Shown here in pieces: positions 12,001 to 57,150 of a DNA stretch of 64,000 nt (positions within the stretch are counted from its first letter, which is position 1; every line of letters starts with the position of its first letter). The notes under the pieces are model-generated. The model had not been told where the DNA came from. It ran no database searches and worked only from the letters and a program-made list of their open reading frames with translations. Source of the stretch: Podarcis gaigeae (Eukaryota). The stretch lies in assembly GCA_964106915.2 (NCBI GenBank), contig OZ066917.1. The stretch is one strand, 5' to 3'. Made by a program: the position numbers and the translations under genes.

Positions 12001-12086
12001 GATTTCAAGATGGTGCCTATGCTGCTTGCAATAATTCCTTTACCAATGCCTGAGATGACACCACCAGTTACCAGGATGTACTTCAT
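1..12086 (-). CDS. CTPS2: CTP synthase 2, 5' part (3'-partial). Coding exons on the minus strand: 12086-11921, 9287-9117, 8147-8047, 7675-7559, 6971-6888, 5783-5703, 4262-4111, 3172-3040, 1310-1222, 73-<1
   Basis: Spliced translation reads [56 protein letters not shown]...[22 protein letters not shown]...[10 protein letters not shown]...[14 protein letters not shown]...ILVPGGFG. Exon sizes are 166/171/101/117/84/81/152/133/89, all GT-AG and phase-consistent. CTPS2-type residues ([19 protein letters not shown]) and adjacency to SYAP1 favour CTPS2 over CTPS1. Confidence 0.96.
851..1056. mobile_element. hAT-type MITE (206 bp)
   Basis: Imperfect TIRs CACAGCTTTCCAAACT / AGTTTGGAAAGCCCTG; 8-bp TSD gcttaagg (843-850) / gctcaagg (1057-1064). 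Confidence 0.75.
2594..3028. mobile_element. Tc1/mariner-pogo-type MITE (435 bp)
   Basis: TIRs CCATATTTTTCCATGTATAAGA / TCTTATACATGGAAAAATACGG, flanked by TA on both sides; internal extra TIR copy at 2637-2658. Confidence 0.8.
3610..3705 (+). mobile_element. CR1-type LINE 3' tail fragment
   Basis: ggcatctggttggcc-ctgtgagaacagg...gacctgatccagcagg; same family as the reverse-oriented copies at 4845 and 51243. Confidence 0.6.
4845..5200 (-). mobile_element. CR1-type LINE 3' fragment
   Basis: gcctgctggatcaggccaatgg...tagtccagcatcct...gtctaatcctcttttaaagcc; clearly homologous to 51243-51465. Confidence 0.7.
8930..9070 (+). mobile_element. Degenerate CORE/MIR-like SINE (related fragment at ~13095-13155)
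   Basis: ctgggtggccttggtcaaatcacaatctctcagtctaatcta...gggttgttgt core-like motif. Confidence 0.45.
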
Positions 12087-15659: not shown

Positions 15660-16320
15660 TTTGGAAGAGTGGAGCGGAAGCCTAGAGCGTCGGCGCCCGC
15701 CGTGACGCGTCGGGGTGACGTAACTCGGAAGTAGCCGAGCACCCTTTTCCGGAAACAAACAACGTTGCCTTGCTCTCAGGAAGGGGTGTCGTTCCCGTGA
15801 AGTCGTTGGAAACGGTTGAAGGAGTGGGGGGTGCGGGGCTTTGGCGCTGCATTAGTAGGCGACCTGCTCGAAGGGGGCGGCGTTTCGCCACTTAGCTAGG
15901 ATGCTGCGCGGCCTGAGCGGCTGGTTCGGCATGAGCCGGGAAGGCGAGGAAGAGAAGCCGCCTCTCCTCGAAGGGGAAGCCGGAGCTGCTGCTGCTGCTG
16001 CCGAGGAGGGAGAAGAGGGGACTGGAGGGGACGCGGCAGTGCGGAGCCCGGAGCAGGTGGAGCTGCAGAGGGACTCGGACCCGCTTCTGAACCAGGCGAA
16101 GGGGCTGGGCAGTGAGTGTCTCCCTTGCTCCCCTTTAACGCGCTTTTCCCAAAGGCCTTCCTCGCGTCCCTTCAAGCCTGCCCAGCTCATATAACTAACC
16201 CCCACAGCCGCCCTATTAATGTAGCAAGCAACCTGCTCAGGTACCCTCTTCGCAGTTGCTTGGCGTTAACCCCCCCCCCCGGACGTGCACTAGCGCAGCG
16301 TGGAGCTTCGCAGGAGTGTG
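15660..16320 (+). promoter_or_regulatory. SYAP1: SYAP1 CpG-island promoter, divergent from CTPS2
   Basis: CpG-rich; CRE-like TGACGTAA (~15716), ETS-type CGGAAGT (~15726) and TTCCGGAA (~15747) lie upstream of ATG 15901. Confidence 0.7.
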
Positions 16321-19300
16321 CTCACTAGGGATTACTGCCAACCTAAGTGCGGCTTTCAAAGCAGCAGCCTGTAGCCTGTTTTACTCCGTGGAAGTTGCTT
16401 CCGTTAGTATGGATTGTGGGTTGCAGCTAAGTAGTCCTATGTGCGAGTACTCCGGCAGTAAGTTTCACCCACTTCTGCCGGCCTTATTTCTGAGCAAGCT
16501 TCCTTTTGAAATTATTGCTTCTCCTTCAGTGAGCACCCCAACATCTCTTAAAGAGTTGCATCTTTTAAGCATGAGAAAAACGCACATCGCTCACCTCTTT
16601 CAGGGACACTAGAAAAGGTTCAAGAAATGCCATGCTGTGGCTATTTCTTTAAAACAGATATGTTCTGTTACAGTTCCATATATCTTAAAACATAAGTGAC
16701 ATTAACAAAAACAGTGGGATGTCAGCTTTGTGCCTAGTGTTTTCTGTGGTTTTGTGGGGTATGACTCTTCTTAAAAATAGGAACACTTCAAAATTATGGT
16801 CTCTGGATGTGTTATCAAAGGGAAATAACAGTACTGTATCTTTATGCAAGCCCTGTTGGTCCTTTCCAATTTGCAAAAATGATACCGCTTGAGTTATTAA
16901 AAGTAGTATGTGACTTCTCTGAGCATAACTAGATTTCTCTATCAACATTAACATTTTGAGCTTTACTAAATTGTCATTATTTGCTTTGAATTTAATAGAA
17001 ACTACCACAATTGACTTTAAATTACAACTGAGGAATGGAGATTTTTCTTAATGTAACAACAAATTCAGCTAAAATAAGGCATTAGGTTATCAGTGATACA
17101 AATAAATGTTAGCTGTTTATGTCTGCAAAACAGATTGTCTTCATAATGGATTCCTTTTCTATTGCTGTGTACTTTAGAACAGCTTCAAATGCAGCATCTT
17201 GGAAAAGGTACTGTTACCTTAAATTTTTACATAATATACATTCCCACTGTACAAGATGCACAGTCCAGAATTCCTCACATCTGCCACTTACACAAATAGG
17301 TAGATGGAAATTAATGTGGCCTGTGCATCAATACCATGTGTTTTTCTAGGACAGGGTGGTCCAACTTTTCATATCAAGTGGGCCGCAGGACTGCTTTGGC
17401 ACAGAACCCAAAGGCCACACACTACCTTATCACGTGGGGGGAGAGGCAAAAATCTGACACCCCCAAGTCCTTGTGCTGCATTCCCAAAGCTGGGTGAGGC
17501 CAGAGGTGGATTTAGGGCAGCATGGCCAGTTCAGCCGCCGTTGGCACTGAGCCTAGGGGGCACTGCAAGGTATTGCAACTATGATGTAGTGAACTGAGCA
17601 AAATTAAAATAAAAAAGACGGGGGTGCCAAATTTTGGCCTTGCATAGGGCACTGCTGAAATTTGAAAAACCAAAGTTCACCCCTGGCAAGGTACCAGGCT
17701 TTGGGAAGGAGAGGAGAGGGCTCTAGGACCCTGTCAGAGCCCTCACACTACCTTACCAAAGCCCATCCCTCACCTGGCTTTGGTAATGCAGCACAAGGCA
17801 AAGTGCGTATGGGGGTGTGAATTGTTGCTGAGGGCTACCAAAAATGCCTCAAGATCTGCACATTAGGCCACACTGTTCTAGGAATTGGAAGAACTGAATG
17901 ACTGACTCTGTAGGGCTCTAGTAGGTGATTGTGCAGCATATCTTAAAGACTTTGTAATAAAGAAAAAATTAATTGTCTTATTTCCAAAAGGTTATCTCTT
18001 CAGTTTTGCCACTACTGCCACAAAAAAGATATCTGAGTCAGTTGCTGAAACAGCCCAAACTATAAAGAAGTCTGTAGAAGAAGGAAAAATAGAAAATATA
18101 ATTGACAAGGTAACTTTTCTGTTGTAAATAATTTGTTAATAAATTTAGTATCTGCTCTTGCATGTTCTACTTATATTTAAGGCTACTGACATTATGGGTT
18201 TAGTGCCAATAAAGTGTTTTGATCAAGCACTGTACTCAAGGAAGAAAAACTGAAATGTAGGCCAGATCAGCAGCTAATAAAAACTTCATTGAGCTAATTT
18301 AGGAATATTTTAAACACAAGAATTAATCAGTACCACTCGTTTAAATTTTTATACTTAATAATGCAGTAAAATAATTCAGGCAAACCAAGCACACACAGGA
18401 AATATCCTGGAACAATTGTAAGCAGTTTACAAGAAATATATCAGTTATCAGTTTGTGTTGCAAAAAATATTATGTGTTAGGCCACTATTTGATATTTATA
18501 CTGCCTTTTCACAGTTGTTTGTGTTTATCAAAGGTAGTATGTGGGACTGAAAGCAATCAGAAACTTGTTGACACTATAATGTACAGTCTGCAGGACCAAA
18601 GCTTGAAACACCAGTCTAGAATAAGAACCCTTGATGTGTTGTGGTTTTAAAACTACACACAGCGGTAGCAGTTAAGGTTCTCCATGATGTTTTATTAGAA
18701 ATAAGTGTAGTCATTTCTAGCGAATATGACATGACAGACCCGGATCTGACTGATTGACTTGTTAAACCAAAATGTCAGTGAACCTTTTCCCAATGACACA
18801 GCTCCTTTTTAGCACAAACAATCAAACCAGAAGGCCTCTAATTAACTATAGCTTCTGATTTCATCCAAACTAGGAAGCTTTGGTTACCAGATTCCAAGAA
18901 ACTCAGGATATTAAACTAGGTTTAAAATTAAACATATTAAGATATGTTTTAATATCCTGACCTGACCTATTCAAAATGTGGCAGCCATTGCTTCCTGCAT
19001 GGATGAAATGGGAAACTGGTAGGTTTCCTCACACCAGGAAGGAACTGTGTAGATGAGCAAAAGGTGTCCCAGCTTATTAAACAGAGATATATGGCTTGAG
19101 TATTATATTTGAAAGCTATTGTTGACAATATGCAAATTTCTTTGTGTAAACAGTTTTAAGAGAAATAAAGATTAACAAAAGAGATCTGATAATGTTTCTC
19201 TTCTATGCAGTCAGTTAAACCTGCCCTCAAACTATTATTTGTTTCTGAAGCCTGTTACACATGAGCCTGCATACTGACTGCTGTAGGTGTCCCTATGCTA

Positions 19301-22300
19301 GCTCAGAAGATTGGAAGAAAAACTGCATTGGATCTTCTAGCAGTTTTCTCCGGATACAATAGAAAATTCCCAGTTGGTTCAATCACAGCTTACGCACACA
19401 CACTGCACATTTTTTAAGGTTTTTTTTTATAAAAAAGTTTATGGGATACTATTGGTTATTCCTCTCCTCTCATGCCTATAACATAACAAATAATTATGCT
19501 GGTAGAAGAAAAGGGGCAGAGTCTGACAGATTAAGAAAGGAAGGTATGTGGAGGCATCTCAGTACTCAGCCTGAAGTTCTTTAGGTTGGTCCAGACCCAC
19601 CTTTCATGAATGGAAGAACTCCTTTCATGAAAGCAAGAGATCAAGATCCAGTGGAGGTTCCTTCTGAAGAAAGATGGGTAGAGACTCTTTTGCCAATTCC
19701 CCCTACAGCCCTCTGTGCCATCTCCCTTGCTGTACCAGGACATACTCCAGTCCTTTGGACAAGATTTCCAGGTGGCAAATATATGAAAATAGCCTCCCCA
19801 ACCTTCCTCCAGAAGAGGGCTGCATGGATGGAGTTACATCTGTGCATAGTCTGGATCTAAACCTTTGTATTGAAGGCAGTTACATTCAAATCACTATACA
19901 ATGTGCAAGTATTTGGGTGTACTATTGGAATCTGATATATACATGTTACAGATAGGAATTTGGTTGACTTTGGGCAATACAAATAGATTCCAGTTTTACA
20001 TGTAAATAGGTTGTTGGCAACAGTGAGAACCCAAGTAATCTGGCAAATTAATTGTTGTTCTATATATAACTTTGTTTTTTCTTATAGACAATTATAGGAG
20101 ATTTTCAGAAGGAGCAGAAAAAATTTGTTCAACAGCAGCAAACAAAAAAATCAGGTAATGTATAACAGGTTAATCTTAACCAGGGCTGGGAAGACACAGG
20201 GCAATGGAATCCATGCTGCATCTAGCCAGGGTGTAAAGGTTTTGGGTTTTGTTGCAGGCCGGCACAGCACAGGTATTTAGATTGGGTCCTTCTTTTGGAA
20301 ATGAACCAGCTTTGGATCTAGTGGGTCCATCACAGGTCCTGTCCTACCACTGCAGCGTCCTATTTTGGAGCCTTAACAGTGATTTCTTTCTGCCAGTGAG
20401 AACACTGGCAGTAGTAGCATGCATTCCCCTATGCTTTCAGATAGCACAGCAGAGATCTCTGTGGTAGCAGACCCATGCACACACACTGCCAGGGGACACC
20501 TGAAGCATCCTAATTCCCTCAGCTAAAATGAAATTTAGTTGGGAACACTTATCACACAGATCTTGGCAAGAGGCCTTTTTCAATCAAAAATACCTGTAGT
20601 TCACATGTCTTCTACTACTGAATGCAATATACATATGCTCCCCTTTCCTTACAGAAGCAGCTGTGCCTCCTTGGGTAGACAGCAATGAAGAAGAAACAAT
20701 TCAGCAACAAATACTGGCATTATCAGCAGTAAGTAGTGTTGTGTTCTTTCTGTTTAAGGTTCTTCCTCCTCCTTTTTGCCTACCTAAAACAGGACTTTTG
20801 AGGCATCAATGTGTTGAATAATAAAACTGTTGATGGGATTTAGTGAGATCATGTTAATTGATGATATAAAGACTTCTTTTATTGAAAAATGTTTCCCCAT
20901 GTATCTGGCAGAGCTGCTTATGCTATAAGTTACTTTTCAATGTAATTATTGACAAGTGCTCTTTGGAAACAGAAACATAACTTTTTCACCATTGACAGAT
21001 AGATTTTTTTTTTTTTTTGCAAAGGACCGAAGAAACTTCCTACGTGACCCACCAGCTGGGGTTCAATTTAATTTTGACTTTGATCAGATGTATCCAGTGG
21101 CATTGGTAATGCTCCAAGAAGATGAACTTCTGAACAGAATGAGATTTGATCTTGTCCCAAAGCAGTGAGTGATCTCCCTATATTTTCATAAGCTGTTGAA
21201 CAATTTTTTAAGTCTGAGTAAAAATAATAGCTTTGTGTAACTTGCAATATTTACTAATATTGTGTTTCCATTTGTACATTAAAATGTGACAATAAATAGT
21301 TCATGGTATTCTATTCTGAAATTTAAGTCACAGTCTAAACCTGAACATTAAATTATTTCTCAGTGGGGCTTTTGTTTGTTTGTTTTTTTGGAAACCTAAC
21401 TTGCCAAATACTGTTATGCCTACCTCTGAGGAATTTTATTTTATCTTTGTCAGAGCTAGTAACAGTTTAGTGCAAGCTCATAGCACAACCTTATGCATAA
21501 CTACTCCAAAGCAAGTTCCATTTAGTCCAATGGGAATTATTCCTGGCCAAATACATGTAGGTTTGTAGCCATCAGGTTGGATCCAGATATGCCCACCTGC
21601 AAACTCCAATCCAGCAGAGGCTTCCAGTGGAAAAGTAGGAAGAGTGATTTTTGTCAATTCCCCCTTTTTCCATGCCATCTCTCATACTGTTCTGGAAGGT
21701 CCTACGGCTCTTCCGAGCTGCTTTGCAGGGAAGAAACCGAAGCAGCTCTCCTGCTCCACTCATCCCTCCACTATGCATACAGTAAACTCCCACCTTGCAT
21801 GCATGTTTCATGTTATATTTATATAGCGTAGTTATCAAAACCATATATTTTGTTGTCTCCAGTGTAAAAGAAGATGTGTTTTGGAGGAATTACTTTTACC
21901 GTGTCTCCCTGATTAAGCAGTCTGCACAGCTCACAGCACTGGCTGCACAACAGCAAGCCGTGAGGAAAGAACAGAATGGCAGCCAAGAGGACAGACAGCT
22001 AGCAGGTAGAGATTTGTTTCACTATGTTGGGTGGCGACTCCTTTCTCGCCTGCCTGACAAATGCACATTCCAGACTTTCTCCCTCCGTCACTTTTTAAAC
22101 ATTTCTTATGGTAGAAGTTTCATAAATTATTAGCCTTCAAAAATTTGAGAACAAGCAAAATAGTTCTGTTACAGTTCCACAGATATTCTTATTGAGGAAG
22201 AGAAATCTAAGATACATATTTCCACAATATAAGCACAAGTTCAGGACTATAGTTCAATTTCTTCACAATATTCAGTTATATTACTTTCTCTGTTAAGAAT

Positions 22301-25300
22301 TAAAAATAGTTTCATGTAGAAAGTTTTGCTCTTCATGAAAGCTTGTGCTGCTGCCTTTTGGTGGGGATGAAGCCCTAGCCTTTTACCTCAGGAGCTGAAC
22401 ATGGGGGTGCGGATTATCATTGTTCCTTCCTTAGCTCTAAGGCTAGGGGGAAGATAGAGCGGTTTGGCCATTGCACTGAAACACAAGGAGTGCCTTGAAA
22501 GCACAAGGTCAAACTACCAAGGCTCCAAATTTGGAGCCTGAGGTGGAAGCAGAGTATTATCTCTAATCTCACATTATAGCACAGTATAAGGCCAGGGACA
22601 AGGAGATGGGTAGCTCCTGGCAACGACAAAATCCATTTCAGCTATCAAGGCCAGTCAAGAATTGTGGAATCAGACATGTGAATAAGCCATGCATATGCAT
22701 ATAAGCTGCAGCAAGCACAGAATTTGTATACACACACACACACTCTTTCTCTTTCACTCCACAAAAAAGAAAGCAAAGAGATTGCAAACTGTGACCAAAA
22801 ACCTTCAAACTACATTTTGTTCAACCATAGTTAACAAACCAGAAAATCAAACTGGATAACATGGCTTGTACAAACCACAATTTTACCTATTCATAAAGGG
22901 AAGCTGCAGCTTGTTACCAATCAGAACCAGAAGCTTTAAATATCCTTGGTGTGAAAAGAGAGAGGAAGAGGAGGAAGTGTGTGAGTGTATTGTACTTGGC
23001 TTGTTATGTTTGAGTCACTGTTCACTCAGCCACAACGTGAGCTTTAAATGCTCTTCTAAATTCTATCCTTTCTGTCTTTTTCCTAGAAACTGTACGACCA
23101 AAGACACCACCCGTAGCGATCAAATCTCAGCTAAAGCCTCAAGAGGTAACATTCTCCATTTAAGATTAATATGTGTATTTACAGCATAACCGTTTTTTAT
23201 ACTTTAAGTTTTTTAGGTGCATGTTAGTTTGGCCAACTCCAAAATTGCTTCACAAAAAGCCCTTAAACAAATGTACTGGAGGAATCAAGAATTTGGCTGA
23301 AACAAGGTTTAAAATGGTGGCTGTTTGAGGACCTTCAGAATCCTGCGCGAAGGAGGTCACCCTTTTAATCAAGTGATTGCCTATGATTGGCAAGTTCTGG
23401 CTGAGCAGCTAAAGTGCAATTTTCCCTTCCCCAACCCTGTATCACAGCACTTCCTCTCTTTGGGAGACTTTGCACTTTACTATGGTTGATTCAAGTATTT
23501 TATTTATACCATTAATGCCAGATGTGGGATGGGATAGTGGAAAGGAATAGTGCAAGGGCATAGCTCTGTGCTGAACTTTCCAGCTGGAAAACAAAGGTAC
23601 CTGTTTTTGTAATGTTAGCCAGCACCAGGTATGAGGAACCTTTGACCCTCCAGATGTTGCAGGACCTTCAAGCACACTGCCCAGGCTTGCACCCTGGGGA
23701 GGTCACTTCAGTGCTGCTAATGGTTTGACTTCATCCCCAGAGTCACACTCCATTGTCTCTTGAGACAGATGGATGCCAACAACCGCTCCCACTATTCCTG
23801 ACAATGTCTGCTGGAACTGATGGAGTTGTAGCTTAGTATCATGTGGAGGGCCAGAGATTCTCCACATCTGACTTTCTGCTGCATTGCATATCTCCTAAGA
23901 AAGTAATACAGAAGGAAAATGAGGGCAAAATGACTTTGTCTATCCCTTCTACCTGCCACGGTGATTCTCATGAAGATAAGCTATTTTACAAATTCCTATT
24001 AGGCCTTTGTTCAGTGTAGAGATTCTGTGCACGTGACCTCATTGTTTTCCCTTTCACTATAGGAAAATGGTGCATAACATTAAGGAGAAATGCCCACGAT
24101 ATTAGTGTATATATACACTTTTGAATTCCTTCACCATCTCCTGTAACTAAGGATTTCCTTCCTTTCTCATCTCCAATTTAAGGAGGAAGAAGAAATTTCA
24201 ACTAGCCCAGGTGTATCAGAATTTGTGAGTGACGCTTTTGATGCATGCAGCTTGAATCGGGAAGATTTGAGGAAAGAGATTGAACAACTTGTACTTGACA
24301 AGAGCAAGGAAACAACTATAGTAGAAGGTAAAAAAAACCCAATAACTTTTTGCATTCTGCTCCCTCTCATTATGGGTATATTAAATTTGTAAATATATTC
24401 CATATTTGAATCAAAAATAGCTTTAGAAATATCCCCTTACCCAAAGAGGATAGTCTATCTGAAATAGTAAGATTTGTGCCTTTATTTGCTTATTTATTTA
24501 TTTAGTAAGTTTCTATACCACCCTTTACCCAAAGCTCACAGGGTGGTTTATAATAAGCAAAGCTAGAAATGTGTCCTGTTCTTAACACTGCTCATCTTCC
24601 CTGCATTCTGAAGTCTTGAATTATCTTAATTGTTAACAGCAGTATCCTTTATTTCCTGGACTGTGGCTGAAGCAGTATGTGCAGGAAACTGGTTTTGCAG
24701 ATTTAGAGTACTTGGATGTCTAGGTTTATAGGAAGTGCATATCCCAAGGAAGAGAACAGTGTTGAAAAGGAAATCTAGATGTCACTAATTTGGGAACAGC
24801 TTTTTTATACAACTTACTTCCAAGTAAGGGTTTTATTTCTGTATGTGCTCAGCTCTGGCCCTTCCAGAGTATTCTTTCAATTGGCATGCCTTGCATGTGA
24901 TTAGATAATCTTGGACACCAGCAATTCTCAAATGCATAGCATTTGGAAGACATTTTAGTCAAAAATATAGCAGTAATTTCTTGGTGTACAGGTTTGTTTT
25001 CTACACATTCATGCTTAAGAAAGCTTGGAAATGTGAATGGCAAAGAGAAGAGAGTGTAAATTGACAAAGTAGAGAAGTATTTAAACAATTGTGATTTCCC
25101 CTTACTTGCAGTTTGAACTGGTACAAAACATTTTGTTGTGTGGATAGACTAGTCCTTATTAGCAAAATTAGTACTAAAATAGTGCAATATTTATCCAGTC
25201 CTGTGACATGTATATGTTTTGTTTTTAGAAGAAACTGCAGACTGGGAAAAGGAACTACAACAAGAACTTCAGGAATATGAAGTAGTTGCAGAGTCAGAAA

Positions 25301-25356
25301 AACGAGATGATAACTGGGACAAAGAAATAGAGGAAATGCTACAAGGAGAAAATTAA
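15901..25356 (+). CDS. SYAP1: Synapse-associated protein 1 (BSD domain), complete, 361 aa. Exons: 15901-16111, 17991-18109, 20088-20154, 20655-20728, 21025-21164, 21863-22005, 23087-23145, 24183-24327, 25229-25356
   Basis: Translation reads [10 protein letters not shown]...[32 protein letters not shown]...[34 protein letters not shown]...[21 protein letters not shown]...[16 protein letters not shown]...MLQGEN*. Exons sum to 1086 nt with canonical splice sites. Confidence 0.97.
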
Positions 25357-25502: not shown

Positions 25503-27226
25503 CAGACTCCAGGTGATATGTAATCGGGTGTAAAAAACAGTTCTTTGAAAGTACTGTTAATCATCCAGTGGCATGTGAGGCAAGTTTTAAAAGTTAATGA
25601 AACGAAAGTTGCTGGAAAATGTTAACTGGATAACCAGAAGTGAATTTTAAAAATAATTTGTGAGCTGCTTTCTGTACTGGGGTAAAAATTGAAAACTTCC
25701 AATCATATTCCTACAAGTAATAGGAAGTCATGTTAATATTTTGATCCCTTTGGCTCATTTATAAATATAAGTTCATAATACATCTAGGTATTAGTCCCTT
25801 AATACCATATGTTCTCTTAGAAAGTGTTATCAGGCTTTGTCTATAGCTTTTTTTATCTTAGCAGAACCTTGGCACCTGGACATCAAAAGCGGTGAAGGTT
25901 TAGAGTGATGATATGGTGTGGCTAATCAAAAATTCAGTGATTCAATTATCCTCACTTTAGTCACTAGACAGATAAAACAATGACCGCTCAAGATATACAT
26001 AAATGGCACATCAACTGGCTCAGGGTTCACTTACTTTATTGGGATTTTTTCACTCCAAGAATAATAGAGCGTTTTAGAAGAAAAACGGTTCAGTTCTTCT
26101 GTTTAGGATAAAAGTATCTCTTCATTTAATTGCTAAAATGTATAATATACAGTACTTTAGAGTGAAGCATTGGTTAAATAGTAGAACCAAAGTGTAGCAG
26201 GAAATTCAGGCTTGGCCTGTGGGTGTGGTTGAGTAGTGCTATACTCATAAGTGTTAAATGTTTATTAAGGTGTGGGAGGAACACTCTAGTGTGAATAATC
26301 AGAAGTCAAAATATGACTGCCATCCTAGACAGACAAGACAACACTACAGCTGGATAAAGGGGTCAGAACTGAATGGAAGGTAATATGTTATATTTAGCAG
26401 TGTTGCAGGAGACTACGCATCTAACTTTGGGTCAGTAATTGACTTCTATTGCCTTTGTTTAAAAGGTAAAGTACTAGGAACTTGATTTTTTGAGCAAACT
26501 GATGGAGAATAAACTGGTTACTAGTAACTGAAATGATGGTTGCTAAAGCATAATGTTAACTTTGCTTGATGTCCAGATGTAAAGAATTCACAAGACATCT
26601 TTTCTTACTAATTCCCAAATAAAGATTTCACAGAATCATAAATAAGCTGTTGTTTTCCTACAGGAAATAGCTTGGTTCTCTGTAATACATGAGCAAGTTA
26701 TTTGGCTTTGTGTAAAGTATGCACTTCTGAAGATCCTTATGCTAATGTATATAGTGTAATACACTACTACTATACTAAAAGGCTAATACAAAATGGAAAC
26801 ATTATATAAAATGAAGTAGATACTGTGCATTAGAAGAGAATTTATCTGTTGTCAATTTATCTGTTGACAATCGGTGTTGTCAATTTTAAAAATAGACACC
26901 CTATTTTTTTTGAAAATGTAACAAATGTTAAAAGTCCAAAAATATTTATTAAGAGATGTTTCTATGCAGATTGAGTTTTCTGTTACACACTGCCAGATTA
27001 GATTAATTACGTTTTTCCTTTAAAGGGCACACTGGTTGCAAAACTAAGCTTGGGATGGGGGTGGGGGCTTTTCCTTTAGCAGGTATAGCCAAGCTGAGTC
27101 TTAACTTGTCTTGTAGGATGTCTTATAGGTTGTATTATTCTTCTCCTTTACCGAAACAACTACTAGGGGTGTGATTTACACACAGGAATACATACAAGGA
27201 TTTGACATCCCTGTATGCCTGCTTTC

Positions 27227-27232
27227 AATAAA
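27227..27232 (+). terminator. Candidate SYAP1 polyadenylation signal AATAAA (another candidate at 26618-26623)
   Basis: Hexamer followed by T-rich sequence, before the TXLNG CpG island. Usage is not verifiable from sequence. Confidence 0.4.
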
Positions 27233-28062
27233 CCTTGTTTATTTTAGATGTATAAACAGTATCCTGGACTGAAGCTAGTGTTCACTTACTACACTGTGGT
27301 TAAATTAGATGGGCACTAGGGGTGTATCCAAAATTACTCTTACCTGGAGTAGATCCACTGAAAATAATGGACACGACTCCCTTGGGTCCATTAATTTCCG
27401 GGATCTATTCTAACTTAGTTGCATGCTGTTCTAAAAGTGTGGAAGTGAAACCGTGATCTTAAAAATAAGTCTCCAGGCCTCCTCTTTGCTGATGCTACTC
27501 CTTTAATGCGAAGTACATTTCTTCCTGGATAAAGCAGGGCTAATCAGGCTGTTTCACGGTACTGTGTTCACACTGAATTGTCCCACCCCTTGAGAGACCA
27601 GAGTTTCACTCGCCAGCATTCCACGTTTAGCAGCTTCAGGAAACGTCGGAATGTCTGTCCAGGATTACAAAACAACTCCTGAAAATGAAGTGGACTCACC
27701 CCAGCCTGGAGTGGGGCGCTTTGCTGAGAAAGCGCCTCAGGAGCGGAAGGCATCCTGCAGCGGACATGTGCGCACCCCGCCGCTACCAGCGAGAGAAGGA
27801 AGCGCGCCTTGGACTACAACTCCCGCGAAGCAATGCGGGCGGAGGGAAAGCGAGAAGGCATGCTGGGAGTTGTAGTCCGAAGTTGCTCTCACGTCCGCCT
27901 CTCGAGCGAGTCCCTGGCTCGCTCCCTCACTCGCCTCTTCAGCCGGGCCCAAGCGGTGGGCGTTTCTTCTGCATCACATGACACGGGAAAGGGTGGCCGG
28001 TGATTGGCTGAGGGGAGGCGCTTCCGGCGTAGGCCGGCTTGTTTGGGTATTACCGTCACACT

Positions 28063-46737
<18,675 letters not shown>

Positions 46738-49700
46738 AAGTGTAAACACTGTATTGAGAGATATATTTTGTGTATAACTTTAACTGGTGGTGGTAACTAT
46801 TAGTTTTGTGGTGAAAATTTTCTTACTTTTTCTACCATATCTGTATTTTCTTAGAACAGAACTTGCCTGGTACAGGAAGCTGCATAGCGGCTATTGAATA
46901 GCTTATCTATAAATTTTCCACAACTGTGTTGCACATCTGCCTCGTTTTTTAAAACAACTCATAAAGGATGCATGCAGATTCCTTCCTTCTGACCCCATAG
47001 CACACATCACCATGTCATCTAAGACTCGTGTACAGATTTAACATCATGTCAGGGGAACAACTGTGGCCAGAGTGTCGCAGACTCGGGTTTGAGGGGGGGG
47101 GAGGGAATCGTTGCTTCTATTAAGTGAATTAAGGCTTAGTATTGAATTGTAATGACCAAATACTACAGTGAACTATAATTGGAGATGTGATGGCCAGTGG
47201 GAGCTCATTACTGGATTCATATATGAACAAAACTAAAAACTCTTACAGGGTTTAGTGTAGCTGCAGTCTTGCCTACCGCTTTGAAATCTATATAATTTTG
47301 CAACTGGAAAACAGGGTGTACAACTCACATATTTCTCAGGATTGTCCTGCACAGTCAATTCATAGATGGAGTGACTGTTGCCTGTTAAAGTGAAGAAATA
47401 AGGGAAGAAAACAGGTGCTCAAAAGTTTGTCCAATTAACCACTGACCAAAACTCAGATGCATTTTGAGCACACTTTTGCATCATCCTGGAGATAAAAGCT
47501 TAATAGTTAAAACCTACTGCCTACAAATGCATGTGTGTAGTTGTGGCTTGTCTGATAAAACAAAATGCAATGGGTTTTTGGTTTGTGGGTGCTAGGCAAA
47601 AGTACTTTTTCTGCCATTATTTCTTCACTAGGTTTGGTGCCTAATTAGCATAAAATAATGAACAGCTACAAAGGTGTTCACTGAAAATGGGTGTAATGAC
47701 CAATAACACTCCATCTCTTGGTCCCTTTAATAGACAGTACAGCAGACCATAATGCACATATTTGACTGGAAACATGTTCCCATGAAAACTTACTTGCCTA
47801 TTTAACAAGGATAGGTCAGAGTATAGATAATACAGTTTGTCGTCTAGGGATGGAGGGGGGGGATACTCTGATCTGTTTTCTCAACTATTGCTTTTTGTAA
47901 AATAAAAATGTATGACTAGATAAAACACACCTGTAAGCAAAAGTGCCTTCTGGTATCTATAGGTTACCTGGTAGATTTGGCACATCAGTTAACTAATATA
48001 CAGCAAGCGAGGCTCCACTTTATTTCTGTTGCGTTTGTGGTTAGTGTTGTGAATGTAGATTGACCTGGAAAAGCCCAGATACCCCCATAATTTGGAATTG
48101 TGTTTCTTTTATTTATTTAAAAGACAGGGACCAATAGTGTTTTCTTTGTTAGGCAGAGTGCTACTAGGTCAGAAGCTGCTGTTTAACTCTGCCTTGCAGT
48201 TAGTAGCTTTCTAGTTGCTGGTTGTTTTGAAAAATACAAATACTCCTAATTCTGGTATTTAATTTGGTTTTCATTTTTAAGGGATTTCTGACTCAAGCAC
48301 ATAATTGTTGGCAGGTTCTCTCCTTGCCTACCCATTCTCTCTGAGTTGCAGATTACTTGAATGTTCAGTTATGTTGCTATGTGCTACCCTTTTCCTGATG
48401 AAATGTACAGAATGGAAATAGATGTCTTGAAAGGAAATAAAGGTTGGATCACACCTACTGAATGTTACCTAATACCATTGAGCAAAATCAAATTGGCATC
48501 TGCAGTGACCAAATTTGGAAACTGGCCAGTTAATATTCCTTATAAGGTGCATTTGCAGTTTTTCCTTTTCTTTTTTGGTATGCATTTCAAGTACAGTAAA
48601 AGCAAGCAAAGCTGGTGGGAGGTTTACAGTGAGGAAGGGTAGAATGAGCTTTGTCAGTCATAACCATTTGATTGTAATTGATTCTGGAGAGAAATTTTCT
48701 GATGTTCCCTTTAAAAAACAAAACAAAAAACCTTGTCCAATACTTTAAAGCATATATGTGTAAGCAAAGAAGTCATAGTAAGTAATTTGAAACTGAATGC
48801 AATTTTGAAGGACCGAACTGCGGTGTATCTGAACCATTCCACCCCACCAACCCAATGTATGTGATAGCCTTGCCTGTAGCCAGGATTGGTGTAACGTTTG
48901 CTCTCTTTAGAGAAGAGTAGACTTTGGGTTCCGGTGCATTAAAAATTGCTTCCACGTTATAGCTAAAAACACCCTAAGGATTGTGGCCACAAATACTTAA
49001 AAGGAATTGAATTGAATTGACTATTCTTTCTGGTTCCTGTCTTTTCTAAGTGTAGAACTAAATTTTGTTTCCTGAAATCTTAAGACATTCCATACATTGA
49101 CCAGTGAGAGGGCCAGCATGGGATAAGCGCAGTCCTTGTCTGATCTGGAATTGCACTGCTGTTCTCCAGCTCTTCTTTCCAGTGTACTTCCGCCTGTACA
49201 ACCCATGCTTACCACTGGCAGCTGCTTCAATGTGCGAATTCCAGTAATCATGTGCTAAATTTAAGGCTGTTTCTTGTACCGTCCATCTCTTTATACCTTT
49301 TGCAATGATGCGTACAGTGGGGGGGGGGAGTGCACTGTTTTTCCTATTGCATAACCGGTGGTTCAAATGCACAGTTATCTGCCAATTAAGCCCTAGAATC
49401 CTAAACTATTCTCACACAGGACCCTCAAAGCCAACACTCTTTTTCATTTGTAATTCTTAAGTGTAATTTGCATACATGCTTGGGAGCTGTATCTTTCCAA
49501 TCCGTTCTCCTCTCTCTATTACACCTGGTTATGTTACCGTTCAGTTCTCAGGTGTTGCAGAAAATCTACCTCTTCAGACTGTAGATGGAAATAACTGTGA
49601 AAAGTGATGCAGATATTTAGTTTGTGCTGAACACTCTGCTTTATTTTTACAACCCATACCTGCTTTCATGAAAAAGAAATGCTGAATAAAATAGCCAGTC

Positions 49701-50504
49701 TTGTTTTTGCTTTTCAAGAACATTTTGTAGAGATTTTTCACTAATGTGAATCTGAAATTTTATCTACTCAGTTCTGTATAAATTAAGTAAATATGTGTGC
49801 TTAATATACTAGGCTATGTGTCTTATTTTTTTTTAGAGTTCTCAACTAAATTTCACTTTTCTGGCTGTAGGTCTTGTCCATAGATGTGTGGTGTTCACTG
49901 TACGTATTATTAAGTGAACTGCAAACATGCAGTTTTGTACTTCCATAGCTATCCTAAGGATTCAGAATTGAAAACAAAGCCCTTCCATCAGTGTATCTAA
50001 ACGTTAAACACCATAGCTGTCGTAAACATTCCTTTAATAATGGGATGGTAAACTCCATTCGATTTCCGTCAGTAGTGCATCAAAAGAGTTTACCAGCACC
50101 ATCTAGTGGCAAAAGACAGAGTCTTAACGAGCATCTATTATGGGTGTATGTCTTACACAAAACTGAGGACAACAATCCCTTTAAATTATCTATCAAACTT
50201 GTGGTCTGTACTATTTCTTCCATCTCAACTAATAAATTGAAGCAAAGTTCTCTCTTTAAAAGGAAGAAGTTAAGGATGGAAAGTGTCAAGATGTCATTCC
50301 AACATTCATTTTTGTTTTACCACTCACTTGTCACTGGCTATAGTGTGAACAAGCAGTATTTTGCCCAATAGTTTTCCCTCTGTCCTTTACAGGGAGCAAT
50401 TTGATTTAATGAACCAAACAGTGCTTTGTATTAAGGTGCCTAATGTGTATTTTCGCACACACACACACCCCCAAGTGCCAGGTGCTTTTTTCACGATTAC
50501 AAAA

Positions 50505-50510
50505 AATAAA
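50505..50510 (+). terminator. Candidate distal TXLNG polyadenylation signal AATAAA (others at 47901 and 49685)
   Basis: Last AATAAA before repeat-rich intergenic DNA begins, followed by GT/T-rich sequence. Confidence 0.45.
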
Positions 50511-50610
50511 ATACTTCTCTCTACATTAATGTGCAGCTAGTGGTTTGGAAATACCTGTTTTGCTGAGTGACCTTATGTGAAAGCATCCCAATCACACTAC
50601 TGTTAGGCAT

Positions 50611-50930
50611 GCCTGAGAGGAGATATGATAGCCATCTTCAAATATCCCAAGGGCTGTCACATGGAAGAGGGAACATGCTTGTTTTCTCCTGCTCTGGAGG
50701 GTAGGACTCGAAACAGTGGCTTAAAGTTTCTGACTAAATGTTCGAAAAACTTCGTGACAGTAAGAGCTGTTCAGCAGTGGAACAGACTCCCACAAGAGGT
50801 GACGGACTCTCCTTCCTTGGAGGTTTTTAAACAGAGGTTGGATGGCCATCTGTCATGGATGTTTTAGCTAAGATTCCTGCAGTGCTGGGGGCTGGACTAG
50901 ATAGCCCTTGGGTCCTTTCCAACTCTTTAT
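50611..50930 (+). mobile_element. CR1 LINE 3' end (ORF2 C-terminus remnant plus tail)
   Basis: ORF MIAIFKYPKGCH...EGRTR...NFVTVRAVQQWNRLPQEVTDSPSLEVFKQRLDGHL is the typical CR1 ORF2 C-terminus. Confidence 0.9.
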
Positions 50931-51242
50931 GTCACGAAAAGAGCTACAAAGTCTGACAATTAGGGACAGCTCTTCCACAAGAAGCATGACCTTGCTTCAC
51001 ATTGTTCTAGTTCAAGCACAAAAGGTAAATTCTATTGGTAAGGTAAAGATAAATGACCCCTGGACAGTTAAGTCCAGTCAAAGGTGGCTATGGAAACATT
51101 AGCAAATAGTGTCTTCAGTCAATTGAAAAGCCAGAAAGTGTCAAGTGTGTTGTCTTCTGTTTTCCTTTCATGATGAAAGGTGCGAGGTAATCTCTCTGGG
51201 CTTGGGTCTACGCAACTTGGTTTTCATAGTTAAAAATATATG

Positions 51243-51465
51243 AGCCTGCTGGATCAGGACAATGTCCCATCTAGCCAAGCATCCTGTTCTCACAGAGGCC
51301 TGTCGGAAGTTTGCAAGCAGAATTTGAGCACAAGAGCACTCCAGCTTCCTGTGGTAGCAACTGATATTACTGCCTCCAACTGCGGAGGCACAGCATAGCC
51401 ATTATAGCTAGTAGCCATCAATAGCCCCCACCTCCATGAATTTGTCTAATCCTCTTTTAAAGCTG
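51243..51465 (-). mobile_element. CR1-type LINE 3' fragment
   Basis: Homologous to 4845-5100. Confidence 0.7.
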
Positions 51466-52784
51466 TATGTAGAGTAGTTGAAGTCACCCGTGTCTCCTCT
51501 TTTGGGTGCTTCCTTGATTTCATTCTTCATCTCAAGATCTCCCTGAGCATTTTGATCAAGGGGATGATAGCATGCTGCTAGTACAAAATGGTTAAATTAC
51601 CCACATTGATTATGTGGGGAAGGTTGCCCCTTTGGGGATTTCTAGCTTGCTAGACTCCAAGGTTTCTTTGACATACAAAGTTCAAGGCTGACACCTTGAA
51701 ATAGATGATCCGGCTGACCAGAGAATTATGCTACGTAGAGGGAAATGGGCTTGATCCTATGTCCTTTCCCCAGGCACAGGAGTTGAGCATGAGAGAACAG
51801 TTAACGCAGTAGCTTGCTGGTGCTTTGGAATCTGAAATATTCTTACTCAAAGGCATTATTTTCTCAAAATGCCATTCTAATAGAATTGAAAGCACTACAA
51901 AAAAATTGCCACATTTAAAAAAAGATATTACATTTTTAACTAATACCAATCCATATTTCAGAGAGACATTTTAAATAATTGGGTTGTTTTTAAAAATGCC
52001 TTCTCTACTTGAAAAGTCTCCTTTTGTGGATTTATATTCAGTGGTTCTCAAGGGGCAGAAAACCTCAATATTAAAGTCTAAGGCGAGAAGAATGCCATCA
52101 GGTTTGCATTACTGTCTGAATAACTTAAAATATGCAAAGTTTCTTCCTTCTGCTTTGTCTGCATGTTGATCAGTATTTAGCTATAGTATGCACAAATATG
52201 AGGGCATTCAGTTGTTATATTTCAGCTGGTGAGTAGGCGTTAAATCCTGCTGCTTTGACTGCACATGCCAGTTCCTTTTGCAGAACCAGCAGGAGCAGCC
52301 AACACAGAATTGAACTCCACCCATCACCCCCAATTGCCCAGTGATGTCAGCCAATGGACAAGGTTTGGGGGAAATGGCCTCACTGGCTGCATTGGATCCA
52401 CTGGTAGGCCAACATTGTCCCATGGGCTGTAGGTTCCCCACCCAATTTACACATATGATAAAATAAATCCACACTCTTTTCTTTTCATGTTAGAGCAGAG
52501 CATGAAGGTTGTGAAACAAGCTCATTAACAAGGCTCATTAACTGCTTTATGCCTTACATAAATATGTATCACTGACCATTCAGAAAGGGATTTGAAGAAT
52601 GGAGCAAATATGAAGGAATGTCTCTTGTTCTCAGGCACTGTTTACTTATTAAATTCTTACATATGAGAAGTATAGTAAATTCCAAGCATACTTTGAACCA
52701 TAATGAGGCATAATGTACCTTAGCCTGCCTCCTTGTTTTTTATTGTTTTTCATATCTTCATAATAGGTCGTCCTTGGAAACAAG

Positions 52785-53027
52785 TTACAGATAGGTAGCC
52801 GTGTTGGTCTGCCATAGTCAAAACAAAACAAAATTCCTTCCAGTAGCACCTTAAAGACCAACTAAGTTAGTTCTTGGTATGAGCTTTCGTGGTATGAGCT
52901 TTCGTGTGCATGCACACTTCTTCAGAAATTCACTTCTTCTGAAGAAGTGTGCATGCACACGAAAGCTCATACCAAGAACTAACTTAGTTGGTCTTTAAGG
53001 TGCTACTGGAAGGATTTTTTTTTTTGT
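52785..53027. mobile_element. Penelope-like element insertion: two inverted partial terminal repeats with hammerhead cores and a 12-bp TSD
   Basis: TSD cttggaaacaag at 52773-52784 and 53028-53039; arms 52835-52927 and 52937-53014 are complementary over 78 bp; CTGAAGA..GAAA motif on both strands. Confidence 0.82.
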
Positions 53028-53574
53028 CTTGGAAACAAGGGTCAGGTGTCCTCCCAGAGATGCAGTAACATTCTTTGCATTATTCACTTACACATCAGGA
53101 AATTCACCAAGAATTAACAAAGGCAGTTGATGCTATAATCACTTTCACTCAGGAAGCTGTCCATGCAGAACCAACTACTGTATAGACTTTTAAGTTATAT
53201 GAACTGCTTGCAAAGTAAGGTTAGATAGAGCTTCAATAGTTTGTTTGCTTTTTGTGTTCACAAATCCTTACAGGAGGTAATACATTTTTAAATCAAAGTC
53301 TTTGCTCCCTCTTTCACATCCTGGGTTTTACATCTACTTCTAGCTGTTTTTGTTTAGCTTTAGAAGACATTTAACGATTCATCTTGAATGTAAGAGTTGG
53401 GAGAGGCAATTGCAGAACACCCACTAAAATAAAACACAGCTTGGGTGGCCTTCTGGCGGTATCCTTTTCAATGAAAGGAAAAAAACAGGTGTTAAGTAAC
53501 ACTCTGAATAATCTTGACATGCACACTCAAGATTACGGGAAGATCAAAAGCCATTCCTTGTAAGGGAGTTGCTA

Positions 53575-53790
53575 CAGCCCCTTGATCATTTTGGTTGACC
53601 TTAATGCACGGTTTCCAGCTCTACAATATCCTCCTTGAGATGTGGAGACCAGAACTGAACAAAATATTCCAAGTGTAGTCTCTTTCCAGATTTTCTGTAA
53701 TAGCATATTAGCAGTTGTATGTATGTTTGTTTGTTTGATTCCTTCCTTAACGATACAAAAATGGAATTCATATTATTCACAGCTGCCATA
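53575..53790 (-). mobile_element. CR1 LINE ORF2 fragment (degenerate)
   Basis: Minus-strand translation RLHLEYFVQFWSPHLKEDIVELETVH matches the CR1 motif RPHLEYCVQFWSP..KKD...LE.VQ. Confidence 0.8.
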
Positions 53791-55906
53791 TACTGGTGTG
53801 CTATCCTCCTAGTAATTGTATAAAGCAGCCATAAATATATTCTGTTAACATCAGCAGGACCAATATGGCTCTAATCCAGTATAAAACTCACGTGCTCCTT
53901 GGATGAATATTTGCATAGGAACTGCTTGCATATTTTCTATTTGTATTGAGCTTTACTTGCAAACCCAGATTTTGTTGTGCCTGGATTACCAGGTGTCTTT
54001 GCTGTACCTGCCCCTGCTTAAGTATTTACCTTTTTATAGACCTATAAAAGAAACTTAGGATAGTACCCCTTTTCTAATATGTGTTTGGACAATGTGAATG
54101 TATGGGATTGAGATCATGCCATTTCCACTGTGTGAAATTACAGGAATTATTGCAGAAAATAACAAAGTCATTGAATATACTTGGCATAGCATATTACCTT
54201 GCCATTTCATTATTCAGTGTAAGTCATCTAAAACTTGAAATAAACTCATTTTTATTATAAATGTGAAATAGATGGTCATAGTTGTAATAATTTGGAAATG
54301 GGTAATTTGGAAAGGCAACTAACTGCTGGTGACGAAGTGTGACAATTTCAAAACTGGTGACTAATATGCTGCAGTGGATGACAACCTGTTGACTAAATCG
54401 AGGCTTGTATCTTCATAGAACATATGTGGTGGCCTTGAGAAAGGTTGTGGTTAGAATAAATGTAAAACACTGAAAAGTACAGTAGAAAATGTTTTTAAAA
54501 TTGACTTTACATTAGCTGACAATTTAACAAGGAACAAAATCGCTAATATGAGTGCTGAGTTTATCAACTTCCTGTCAATCATTATTGACATATTTACCAG
54601 TCTTACATTTTGTGAAATTGGACTGAATAGTTTCTGGATTGTTTAGGATCTAATTTGGTGATGAACGGCTAGCTAAAAATTAACTTGTTCAAATTCATGT
54701 GTGGTGGCAATATTGGTTCACACATTTGCTCAACTATGATCTTAAAGAAAGGTCTGATAGAACGTTTAATTTATGCATGATAGTATTCCACCAAATGTGA
54801 TTCATTGCCAAATAAGACTGATTATTTTGTTTTTATGCACATTTATTAGCTGAGGCTCGAGCCATAAGCATATATTTAACTTTCTACAGCTGTGGCCATA
54901 CTTAAATATGCAGTTGGCTGTGTCTCTGTTTTCATTTGGCCTAAGGCACAAATGCCTGCAACAGAAGGTTAATAAAAGGATGCAATATCAACTTAAACAT
55001 TTCCTCAGTTTTCTATACCATTGAAACTAACCCAAACACTGTTTCTCCTTACATCTTCTTTTTTCTTCTCATCTCCATTATGATTGTCAGGTATGTGGAG
55101 AATCGAAGCATAAACAAGTATTAAAATATGTTTCATTTTATGTCTGTCTGTTAATAACTCTTCTGTAGTTCAAGAAACTATTCCTATTAAAATATAATCC
55201 TCCATCTGTTAAACTTGAATGGTTTCTTATGTCAGTAGGGTGGGTTATTTGAGGTCTACGTGTAGTAAAGGCAAAATAACATAACATACTGGAAAAATGG
55301 TCTATCCCTGCAAATCTGCCATCTTTGCAATGGAATGCACTGCACACCCAGCAGGTTGTTTTTAAAAGGCAAACAGGAGCATAGTAGGTTTTAACCGGGA
55401 AGACAGCAGGTGTTTGTCTGAAAACTTCACTGCAGGCCATTCTCTCTTCCCTGTTATTTATTTAATAATCACTTTTCTAAAGATAGGGTTCTCTAAAGCA
55501 GTTTTCAAAGCAAGCCAAAAACTCAAAGCAACCCAATGTCATCAAACCAGTTTTAAACTGCATGTCTATTTATATCCCACTCCAAGTACCTGAGGTAGTT
55601 ATGTTAACTGCAAAATCTTCTTGCCCTGTTGGTCACCTTTCCCTGGCCCACCAAATTAAAAGCTTGAGCACAAAGGTTTTTGCACTACTTCTGGAAAACC
55701 ATGTTGGTCTCCAAGACGCAACTCCTGGGGGCTGATATCCCTTTGGCCTCCCCAATAAAATATGTGAGGGGGTGCCCACCCCAAATTGATAGGCATTGCC
55801 ATTCAAATGGTGCGCGTGCGCCGCATCTTGTGATCAATTATGCGACGTGGGGTCTCTTTGGACCCCCCCCCCAATATTTCATTCAAGTGGGCACCCTTGC
55901 CAAGAC

Positions 55907-56039
55907 CAGGGCTTTTTTCGGGGGTACTCACCAGAACTCAGTTCCATAACCTTTCAGGTGAGTGCCATTGCTATTCTAAGAGAGAGGTGTCCCTGGTGAG
56001 TTCCGGCACCCCCTTTCTCTCCCTAGAAAAACAGCACTG
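55907..56039. mobile_element. hAT-type MITE (133 bp) just upstream of the REPS2 CpG island
   Basis: Ends CAGGGCTTTTTT / AAAAACAGCACTG; 8-bp TSD gccaagac / gccaagaa. Confidence 0.75.
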
Positions 56040-56199
56040 GCCAAGAAGTATCCATTTTGCTAAGACTTTTACCCCACGGTCACCTGCACCCACCCTCTGA
56101 ACTGGGCTTCGAGTTAAGTCTTTAGGTGAGAGGAAATTCCACAGCTAACCCCAGGTGGCCTCTGCTGGGCACACCTTGGTGCCCAGATGCCAGAGAGAT

Positions 56200-57150
56200 T
56201 TAAACGCGGTGGGGCTGCTTTTTTCATGGGGGGGGGGAGGGCTCTCTGCACATGCTCAGATGCGCAGCCCTACTGCGCTATTCTTCGAAGAGCAGGGCGT
56301 CAGGGTCAAGCAAGCCCGTCCCTGAGGTGGCCATGTGGGCATCTAGCGTTTCTCCTCAGAGTGTGGCTCTCACCCCACGGAGGCGGCGACGGCGGCGGTT
56401 GCCTCCTGCTCCAGCCCGGCGTGTGGAGGTGGAGGCTGCGGAGCGGGAACGCCGTTTTGGGCACGTGCCCTGAGGAAGCTTTTTTTCTTCCCCTTCCCTC
56501 CCCTTCCCTTTCCCGAGCAGCTGCCGCCGCCGCCGCTTCCCGCTCTCGGCTTTCTGAGGAAAACCTCTGAGGGAAGCAGAAGAAGAAGGCGCGAAGAAAG
56601 CTTCTCTCCGTCTCCCGCCGCCTCCTCCTCCGCCTCCCCCCTCGGGCAGCACTGCAGAGGCAGCTCCGCTCCGCACTGGGGAGGAGGAGGAGGCGGGGGA
56701 GGCCGCCGCCGCCGGACGGAGGACGAGGCTCAGCCGGGGCTGCTGCAGAGGCTCCTCGCTCGCCCCTCTCGCCCGCCGCCAGGAGTTTCTCTCCGGCCTC
56801 GGGAGTCGCGCCGCCCCCTGCCTGATTCCCCGCTGCCATGGAGCCTGGAGCAGCAGCAGCCGCCGCTGCTGGGCCGGCAGCCGCCGCCGGAGCCGCGGCG
56901 CTCTTCCTGGCTGCGAGCGAGCAGCAGGGCTACTCCGAGCTGTTCTCGCTTTGCGGCGGCGGCCAAGCTGCGCCCGAGGCGGGGGGACCGGCGGGAGCGA
57001 CCCCAGCCGCCGCCGCCGAAGGGAGCAAAGTGGCGGAGTTGTTCCGGGCGTCGCAGCTGCCTGCCGAGACGCTTCATCAGGTAAAGTAGTAGGAGGGGCG
57101 CGCAAACACACATAAACGTGCAGAGTGCCTTCTGGGCGTGTGCAGAGTGC
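56200..57150 (+). promoter_or_regulatory. REPS2: REPS2 CpG island, promoter and GC-rich 5' UTR
   Basis: Very CpG-rich block with GCC runs surrounding ATG 56838. Confidence 0.75.
56838..57080 (+). CDS. REPS2: RalBP1-associated Eps-domain protein 2, coding exon 1 (81 codons). Exon 2 is not seen, so intron 1 extends beyond the window.
   Basis: MEPGAAAAAAAG...SEQQGYSELFSLC...VAELFRASQLPAETLHQ|gtaaag matches the recalled REPS2 N-terminus (poly-Ala, EQQCYSELF, LFRASQLPAETLHQ). Kozak context GCCATGG. Confidence 0.92.

What the first reader, a model, noticed from the sequence alone, without database searches (positions are those of the whole stretch)
50511..56200. RBBP7 is missing from its expected syntenic slot between TXLNG and REPS2: candidate gene loss or relocation
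Known: in human the order is CTPS2(-), SYAP1(+), TXLNG(+), RBBP7(-), REPS2(+). RBBP7 (RbAp46) is a highly conserved ~425-aa multi-exon WD40 histone chaperone of the NuRD/PRC2/Sin3/HAT1 complexes and a paralogue of RBBP4. Seen: the other four genes are present in the same order and orientation. Only ~5.7 kb of continuous, N-free, AT- and TE-rich DNA separates the last TXLNG polyA candidate from the REPS2 island. It has no separate CpG island and none of the invariant peptides (EEYKIWKKNTPFLYD, HEGEVNRARYMPQ, GHQKEGYGLSWN, FIHGGHTAKISDFSWNP) in the ORF track or in my reading. Inference: RBBP7 was deleted or moved in this lineage, perhaps compensated by RBBP4. Short exons could be missed by eye.
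Basis: partly seen in the sequence, partly recalled or inferred. Interest (0 to 1): 0.7.

Follow-up and report, generated by a model that had tools for sequence, protein, structure and literature searches.

The report
Lizard lacks RBBP7; loss already reported
This lizard genome assembly has no copy of the histone-chaperone gene RBBP7, either in its usual place or anywhere else, and likely relies on the unchanged sister gene RBBP4; a 2026 survey already listed RBBP7 as missing across lizards and snakes.

Summary
CTPS2(-), SYAP1(+), TXLNG(+) and REPS2(+) were each identified. No RBBP7 trace lies between TXLNG and REPS2 by tblastn, a profile HMM or real bird RBBP7 exon DNA. Three whole-assembly searches find only one gene of this family, on C17. 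It is intact RBBP4: 28 of 28 diagnostic residues, RBBP4 side of the tree 99/96. So there is no relocated copy or retrocopy in the assembly. Short-read contigs from another sample and another species match the interval, but no listed contig bridges three breaks, two in repeats and one at a repeat's edge. The genome is a lacertid (TXLNG C-terminus 99% to a Podarcis-named cluster). The loss is published: Salve, Sonal and Vijay, BMC Biol 2026 (PMC13005343), list RBBP7 as missing in 30 of 30 squamates, present in outgroups, with evidence of segmental deletion. They filed it in their weakest class, 'unretrieved ortholog'. This work supports true loss with RBBP4 retained. HAT1, RBBP7's exclusive partner in one human study, has exons here. 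The scan's earlier notes did not record this. Already known; low interest.

The parts
6828..12083 (-). CTPS2, four N-terminal coding exons (11919-12083, 9118-9294, 7550-7681, 6828-6992); the gene continues to the left
   Evidence: PF06418 hits on C8; exon 9118-9294 scores 112 bits to CTP synthase 2 against 99-100 to CTP synthase 1
15901..25356 (+). SYAP1 coding span
   Evidence: Exon ORFs read; exon 21025-21162 matches PDB 1x3a SYAP1, E 2e-24; start and stop read from ORFs, not separately tested
28063..46737 (+). TXLNG (gamma-taxilin) coding span; last exon 46411-46737
   Evidence: C-terminal 76 aa hit 34 proteins; those named are gamma-taxilin or uncharacterised, best 99%; exon map by tblastn
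46738..50510 (+). Probable TXLNG 3' UTR, with AATAAA candidates up to 50505
   Evidence: AATAAA positions; a contig of a guessed RNA run has depth 63 up to 50603 and later pieces have depth 4.5-12.5; contigs cannot show an RNA end
50511..56200 (.). Empty slot where RBBP7 lies in other amniotes: no exon, remnant or CpG island detected
50600..51530 (.). Cluster of high-copy repeat fragments; CR1-like (name recalled from the ORF 50607-50867, not tested)
   Evidence: depth 1,000-10,000 times single copy and loose ends; ORF
52773..53027 (.). Young 255-bp high-copy insertion with self-complementary halves; Sauria-SINE-like (name recalled)
   Evidence: absent from contigs of two other organisms that join 52772 to 53028 (records 11 and 19)
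53550..53800 (.). Old repeat fragment, 70-83% identical to many copies
56838..57080 (+). REPS2 first coding exon in its CpG island
   Evidence: translation; 3 of 5 relatives looked up are named REPS2, 2 unnamed; further exons follow on C8 to 42226168, and a second, less similar gene (likely REPS1) lies on C3

Best explanation
RBBP7 is absent from the TXLNG-REPS2 interval and from the rest of this assembly, likely because an old deletion in the common ancestor of lizards and snakes removed it. Shown here: the four neighbours are in place, no exon or remnant is detectable, and the single family member is an intact RBBP4. Taken from the literature: the gene is missing in all squamates examined and annotated in tuatara, which dates the loss to the squamate stem. 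Inferred: the loss was tolerated because RBBP4, about 90% identical and sharing NuRD, PRC2 and Sin3 roles, covers for it without any protein change, and likely also serves as the histone-binding partner of HAT1. One clean deletion cannot be told from inactivation followed by piecemeal erosion.
For: Whole-assembly searches with PF12265 (2 matches of 13 candidates, both C17) and two bird RBBP7 proteins (42 matches of 62 candidates; 22 of 63): every match above 50% identity lies at C17:57.259-57.265 Mb; all others are 27-47% WD40 matches. That gene has 11 coding exons with AG/GT borders (exon 1 not mapped), 419 codons with no internal stop, the RBBP4 residue at 28 of 28 diagnostic columns and the RBBP7 residue at none, and falls on the RBBP4 side of the tree (99/96) while RBBP7 forms its own clade (100/100). 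It equals the commonest RBBP4 residue at 419 of 419 positions; one exon is 53/53 identical to PDB RBBP4. A BSD-domain gene lies 59 kb from it and a CTP synthase on the same contig, as expected for the RBBP4 paralogon (gene names recalled). Bird RBBP7 exon DNA scores 66-236 on lizard RBBP4 but 40-81 on the interval; planted copies decayed by 40% were found in 10 of 10 trials for 6 of 11 exons and 9 of 10 for 2 more. Contigs of an independent sample and of another species match the interval. PMC13005343: missing in 30 of 30 squamates, intact in alligator, chicken, turtle, human, Xenopus (Table S2); no assembly gap in three long-read checks; 5 significant distance ratios; reads assemble to RBBP4 (Table S1); tuatara gene id given (Table S8).
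Against: No long read or contig spans the whole interval. One bird exon scored above all 25 control stretches at 48437-48606 and above all but 8 of 300 codon shuffles; it is one of 11 tests and is not collinear with the others. The paper files RBBP7 as 'unretrieved ortholog', one of its two regression tests gave p = 1, its synteny table prints RBBP7 in squamate rows (I read this as a placeholder; formatting is lost in the text copy), and Table S9 shows 92-99% of chicken exon bases aligned in squamates (I read this as alignment to RBBP4). Tuatara RBBP7 was not checked here. Compensation was not tested.
Confidence: 0.92

Rival explanations
1. Assembly artefact: RBBP7 is present but collapsed or mis-joined out of this interval, or lies in unassembled DNA.
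For: Three breaks at or beside repeats are not bridged by listed short-read contigs. Raw reads were not searched for RBBP7 here.
Against: No N in the window. Contigs from a second sample and a second species match in order; one 4.1-kb contig spans 51855-55764. The paper found no gap with long reads in three squamates and recovered only RBBP4 from raw reads in 5 of 6 data sets, with nothing assembled in the sixth. RBBP7 is not GC-rich (46% mean).
Confidence: 0.04
2. RBBP7 moved elsewhere, survives as a retrocopy, or diverged beyond detection.
For: The paper names sequence divergence as a reason to leave RBBP7 unclassified. The genome search scores only its best candidates.
Against: RBBP7 queries found the paralogue's exons at up to 93% identity and unrelated WD40 genes at 27-47%, so even a strongly diverged copy should show. 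Bird and mammal RBBP7 are 87.5-92.6% identical even to lizard RBBP4.
Confidence: 0.02
3. The C17 gene is an RBBP7 converted towards RBBP4, or a mosaic of the two.
For: The two paralogues are about 90% identical.
Against: 0 of 28 diagnostic columns carry the RBBP7 residue, and they are spread from residue 1 to 414.
Confidence: 0.01

Closest known systems
Squamate RBBP7 loss by segmental deletion (Salve, Sonal, Vijay, BMC Biol 2026;24:72, PMC13005343; preprint 10.1101/2025.07.03.663111)
   Same: Same gene, same CTPS2-SYAP1-TXLNG-[RBBP7]-REPS2 block, lacertids included, RBBP4 named as the paralogue recovered.
   Different: The paper leaves RBBP7 as 'unretrieved ortholog' and mentions it four times in the main text. 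Here the protein-level, remnant and power tests in one lacertid assembly support the stronger class, ortholog loss with retained paralogue.
Other squamate losses of chromatin genes with a retained paralogue: KDM3A and SUV39H2 (same paper)
   Same: Conserved synteny, segmental deletion, paralogue proposed to compensate.
   Different: Different genes and loci; filed by the authors as loss with retained paralogue.
Single RBBP4/7 gene of Drosophila (Caf1-55) and Tetrahymena (RebL1) (PMC10287929, PMC8216455, passages)
   Same: One protein serves the complexes that vertebrates split between two; RebL1 co-purifies with both Hat1 and CAF1.
   Different: Those lineages never had the duplicate; squamates returned to one copy after the vertebrate duplication.

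Membership tests
True gene loss by deletion at a syntenic locus | Flanking genes are the true orthologues, in conserved order | tested here: met
   outgroup order from Table S4
True gene loss by deletion at a syntenic locus | No exon or remnant in the interval | tested here: met
   power falls to about half at 50% decay, and is low for the three shortest exons
True gene loss by deletion at a syntenic locus | No copy elsewhere in the assembly | tested here: met
True gene loss by deletion at a syntenic locus | Interval spanned by independent long reads | tested here: inconclusive
   Only short-read contigs; three breaks unbridged. Published long-read checks in three squamates found no gap.
True gene loss by deletion at a syntenic locus | Gene present in the sister lineage | not testable with these tools
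   Tuatara gene id in Table S8, not inspected. Bird RBBP7 genomic DNA seen in L076 and L091.
True gene loss by deletion at a syntenic locus | Absent from raw reads and transcriptomes | not tested
   Only the paper's HybPiper result
RBBP4 (identity of the C17 gene) | RBBP4 residues at paralogue-diagnostic columns and placement in the RBBP4 clade | tested here: met
   28 of 28; 99/96 support; 12 RBBP7, 12 RBBP4 and 4 invertebrate rows chosen from 120 listed hits by source name or sequence
Paralogue compensation | RBBP4 replaces RBBP7 in its complexes (HAT1, NuRD, PRC2, Sin3) | not testable with these tools
   Two HAT1 exons found; no binding or expression data

The most novel reading that the evidence does not exclude
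Squamates are a natural knockout of RBBP7 in which an RBBP4 with no amino-acid change takes over RBBP7's own roles, including partnering HAT1 and supporting spermatogenesis. The RBBP7-only roles seen in mammals would then reflect expression or competition rather than a biochemical need for the RBBP7 sequence, or lizard HAT1 has changed to accept RBBP4.
Probability: 0.6. Interest if true: 0.4.

Novelty: already known. Interest (0 to 1): 0.2.

Why it matters
RBBP7 is a very conserved histone chaperone. In human cells Hat1 co-purified only with RBBP7 (PMC8216455, passages), and a human RBBP7 mutation is linked to arrested sperm maturation (PMC10575721, abstract). In mouse stem cells RBBP7 is dispensable and RBBP4 is not (PMC10287929, passages). 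A whole reptile order living without it offers a natural test of how redundant the pair is. The loss itself is already in print, so the gain here is firmer evidence for one entry in a published list.

Tried and rejected
Remnant search: best alignments of 11 bird RBBP7 exons are not collinear (exon 4 at 53.1 kb, 5 at 47.7, 6 at 48.5, 7 at 53.2, 12 at 49.6 kb). A tempting last-exon match at 49529-49587 was reached by 2 of 25 controls, and the bird 3' UTR does not continue it (63 of 96 controls as good). Of 38 tiles of bird DNA, 5 on the minus and 3 on the plus strand beat the best of 10 controls, against about 3.5 each expected. Bird non-coding DNA may be too distant to show remnants: L091 did not match the lizard TXLNG 3' UTR either. 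Lizard RBBP4 exon DNA against the interval: at shuffle level for 10 of 11 exons, one a point above the best of 20 shuffles. Of 79 metagenome loci, 2 were bird-type RBBP7 and 1 vertebrate RBBP4; the rest looked like non-vertebrate homologues and were not used further. Searches used wrong reading frames of REPS2 exon 1, so the blank means nothing; one search read the wrong strand. The protein atlas gave no usable hit for REPS2 exon 1. The EH and BSD family searches missed REPS2 and SYAP1 on C8, which shows that family searches can miss genes in short exons; the RBBP7 conclusion therefore rests on the protein searches. No RNA holder was listed. Low-depth contigs of a guessed RNA run cover 51044-55213: one run, may be DNA, not used. 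Paper searches for other reports of the loss found only PMC13005343; one search found nothing on chicken HAT1 partners. Additional files 2 and 3 of that paper (gene-wise evidence, RNA mapping) could not be read and may hold more on RBBP7.
Full report
Setting. The window is G000:C8:42098001-42162000 of a 1.51-Gb assembly in 211 contigs. The TXLNG C-terminus is 99% identical to a cluster named Podarcis muralis, 88% to an amphisbaenian and 74% to tuatara, so the genome is a lacertid lizard.

The neighbours. CTPS2 lies on the minus strand; one exon scores higher against CTP synthase 2 than 1 in the PDB. SYAP1 follows on plus (ORFs; PDB 1x3a, E 2e-24). TXLNG runs from 28063 to its stop at 46737. 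REPS2 starts at 56838; 3 of 5 relatives looked up are named REPS2 and 2 have no name, and its later exons continue on C8. The order in chicken, human, turtle and platypus is CTPS2, SYAP1, TXLNG, RBBP7, REPS2 (Table S4 of PMC13005343).

The interval. It has no N, GC 39.8%, CpG o/e 0.20 and no CpG island. tblastn with 6 RBBP7 and 2 RBBP4 proteins gave nothing above noise in the window, while the control locus gave E down to 1e-62. An RBBP7 profile scored -5.6 bits at best, reached by 39 of 100 shuffles. A metagenome scan returned two contigs with bird-type RBBP7 genomic DNA, L076 and L091. Their 11 exons score 66-236 on lizard RBBP4 but 40-81 on the interval. Planted copies decayed by 40% were detected in 9-10 of 10 trials for 8 of 11 exons, and about half the time at 50%. 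One exon stood out (score 81; 0 of 25 control stretches, 8 of 300 codon shuffles), but it is one of 11 tests, lies inside the probable TXLNG 3' UTR and is out of order with the rest. A last-exon look-alike was not continued by the 3' UTR. I conclude that no remnant is detectable; a very decayed one cannot be excluded.

The rest of the genome. PF12265 matched 2 of 13 candidates, both exons of one gene on C17. Two bird RBBP7 proteins gave 42 of 62 and 22 of 63 candidates as matches; all those above 50% identity are exons of that gene, and the others are 27-47% WD40 matches. The gene has 11 mapped coding exons with AG/GT borders and no internal stop. It carries the RBBP4 residue at 28 of 28 diagnostic columns and sits on the RBBP4 side of a 29-row tree (99/96); the rows were 12 RBBP7, 12 RBBP4 and 4 invertebrate proteins picked from 120 listed hits, several of them odd isoforms. 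It matches the commonest RBBP4 residue at all 419 positions. Family searches did miss REPS2 and SYAP1, so the conclusion rests on the protein searches, which found the paralogue's exons except the short last one.

Assembly. Three runs of the same organism hold 86-94% of sampled words of 46400-56300; the best two are one sample and may be the assembly's source. Contigs were laid on 50300-56500 only. In the independent sample X3 they cover up to 50640, 51064-51459, 51529-52805, 53001-55812 and 55816 onward. A contig of another species spans 51855-55764 and lacks a 255-bp insertion at 52773-53027. No listed contig bridges the breaks near 50640-51064, 51460-51529 and 55812, which lie in or beside repeats, and the table is cut. 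My own data therefore do not fully exclude a collapse there.

Literature. Of PMC13005343 I read the abstract, all four RBBP7 passages, section 6 (part 1 of 2), sections 10 and 18, part 1 of supplementary file 1, and places 1-32 and 281-340 of 358 RBBP7 hits in it. RBBP7 is one of 53 genes not retrieved in squamates and one of 19 named with evidence of segmental deletion. It is missing in 30 of 30 squamates and intact in 5 of 5 outgroups (Table S2), has a tuatara gene id (Table S8), shows no assembly gap in three long-read checks, and its reads assemble to RBBP4 (Table S1). Against this: the authors class it only as 'unretrieved ortholog', one regression gave p = 1, Table S4 prints RBBP7 in squamate rows, and Table S9 shows 92-99% exon alignment in squamates. 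I read the last two as a placeholder and as alignment to RBBP4, without being able to check. Additional files 2 and 3 were unreadable. Searches found no other report; the library lacks most subscription papers.

Mechanism. Shown: absence at the locus and in the assembly, and an intact, unchanged RBBP4. From the paper: loss in the squamate stem after the split from tuatara, about 250 million years ago. Inferred: deletion of the gene while both neighbours survived, later repeat insertions into the gap, and tolerance through RBBP4. Mouse stem cells need RBBP4 but not RBBP7, and the two share most binding sites (PMC10287929, passages). Human Hat1 co-purified only with RBBP7, whereas the single Tetrahymena protein binds both Hat1 and CAF1 (PMC8216455, passages). 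Two HAT1 exons are present in this genome, so RBBP4 likely partners it; the gene's completeness and the binding were not tested. A human RBBP7 mutation is linked to arrested spermatogenesis (PMC10575721, abstract).

Verdict. A real and well-supported gene absence, already published for squamates as a whole. The scan's own notes held nothing on it. Novelty: already known. Interest 0.2.

Noticed in passing
window 52773-53027: A 255-bp high-copy insertion with self-complementary halves, absent from contigs of two related organisms; a usable phylogenetic marker. A similar element lies near 13900-14100.
   Followed up: partly
window 51044-55213: Contigs of a guessed RNA run from a related organism cover this stretch at low depth and stop near 55213 while DNA runs go on: possible TXLNG read-through, or DNA in the library.
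   Followed up: no
G000:C17:57.20-57.27 Mb and 70.03 Mb: A BSD-domain gene 59 kb from RBBP4 and a second CTP synthase on the same contig mirror the SYAP1, RBBP7, CTPS2 block, as expected for a whole-genome-duplication paralogon (gene names BSDC1 and CTPS1 recalled).
   Followed up: partly
window 27001-29000, 32001-33000, 38001-39000: Besides the promoter island, TXLNG has two internal CpG-rich kilobases (o/e 0.96 and 0.82). The first is next to exon 2; the second is unexplained and may be a repeat.
   Followed up: no
PMC13005343 Table S4: The Anolis carolinensis and Crotalus tigris rows print CTPS2 and SYAP1 in swapped order next to TXLNG, hinting at a local rearrangement not present in this window.
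   Followed up: no
window 46738-50510: The probable TXLNG 3' UTR is about 3.8 kb with six candidate poly(A) signals.
   Followed up: no
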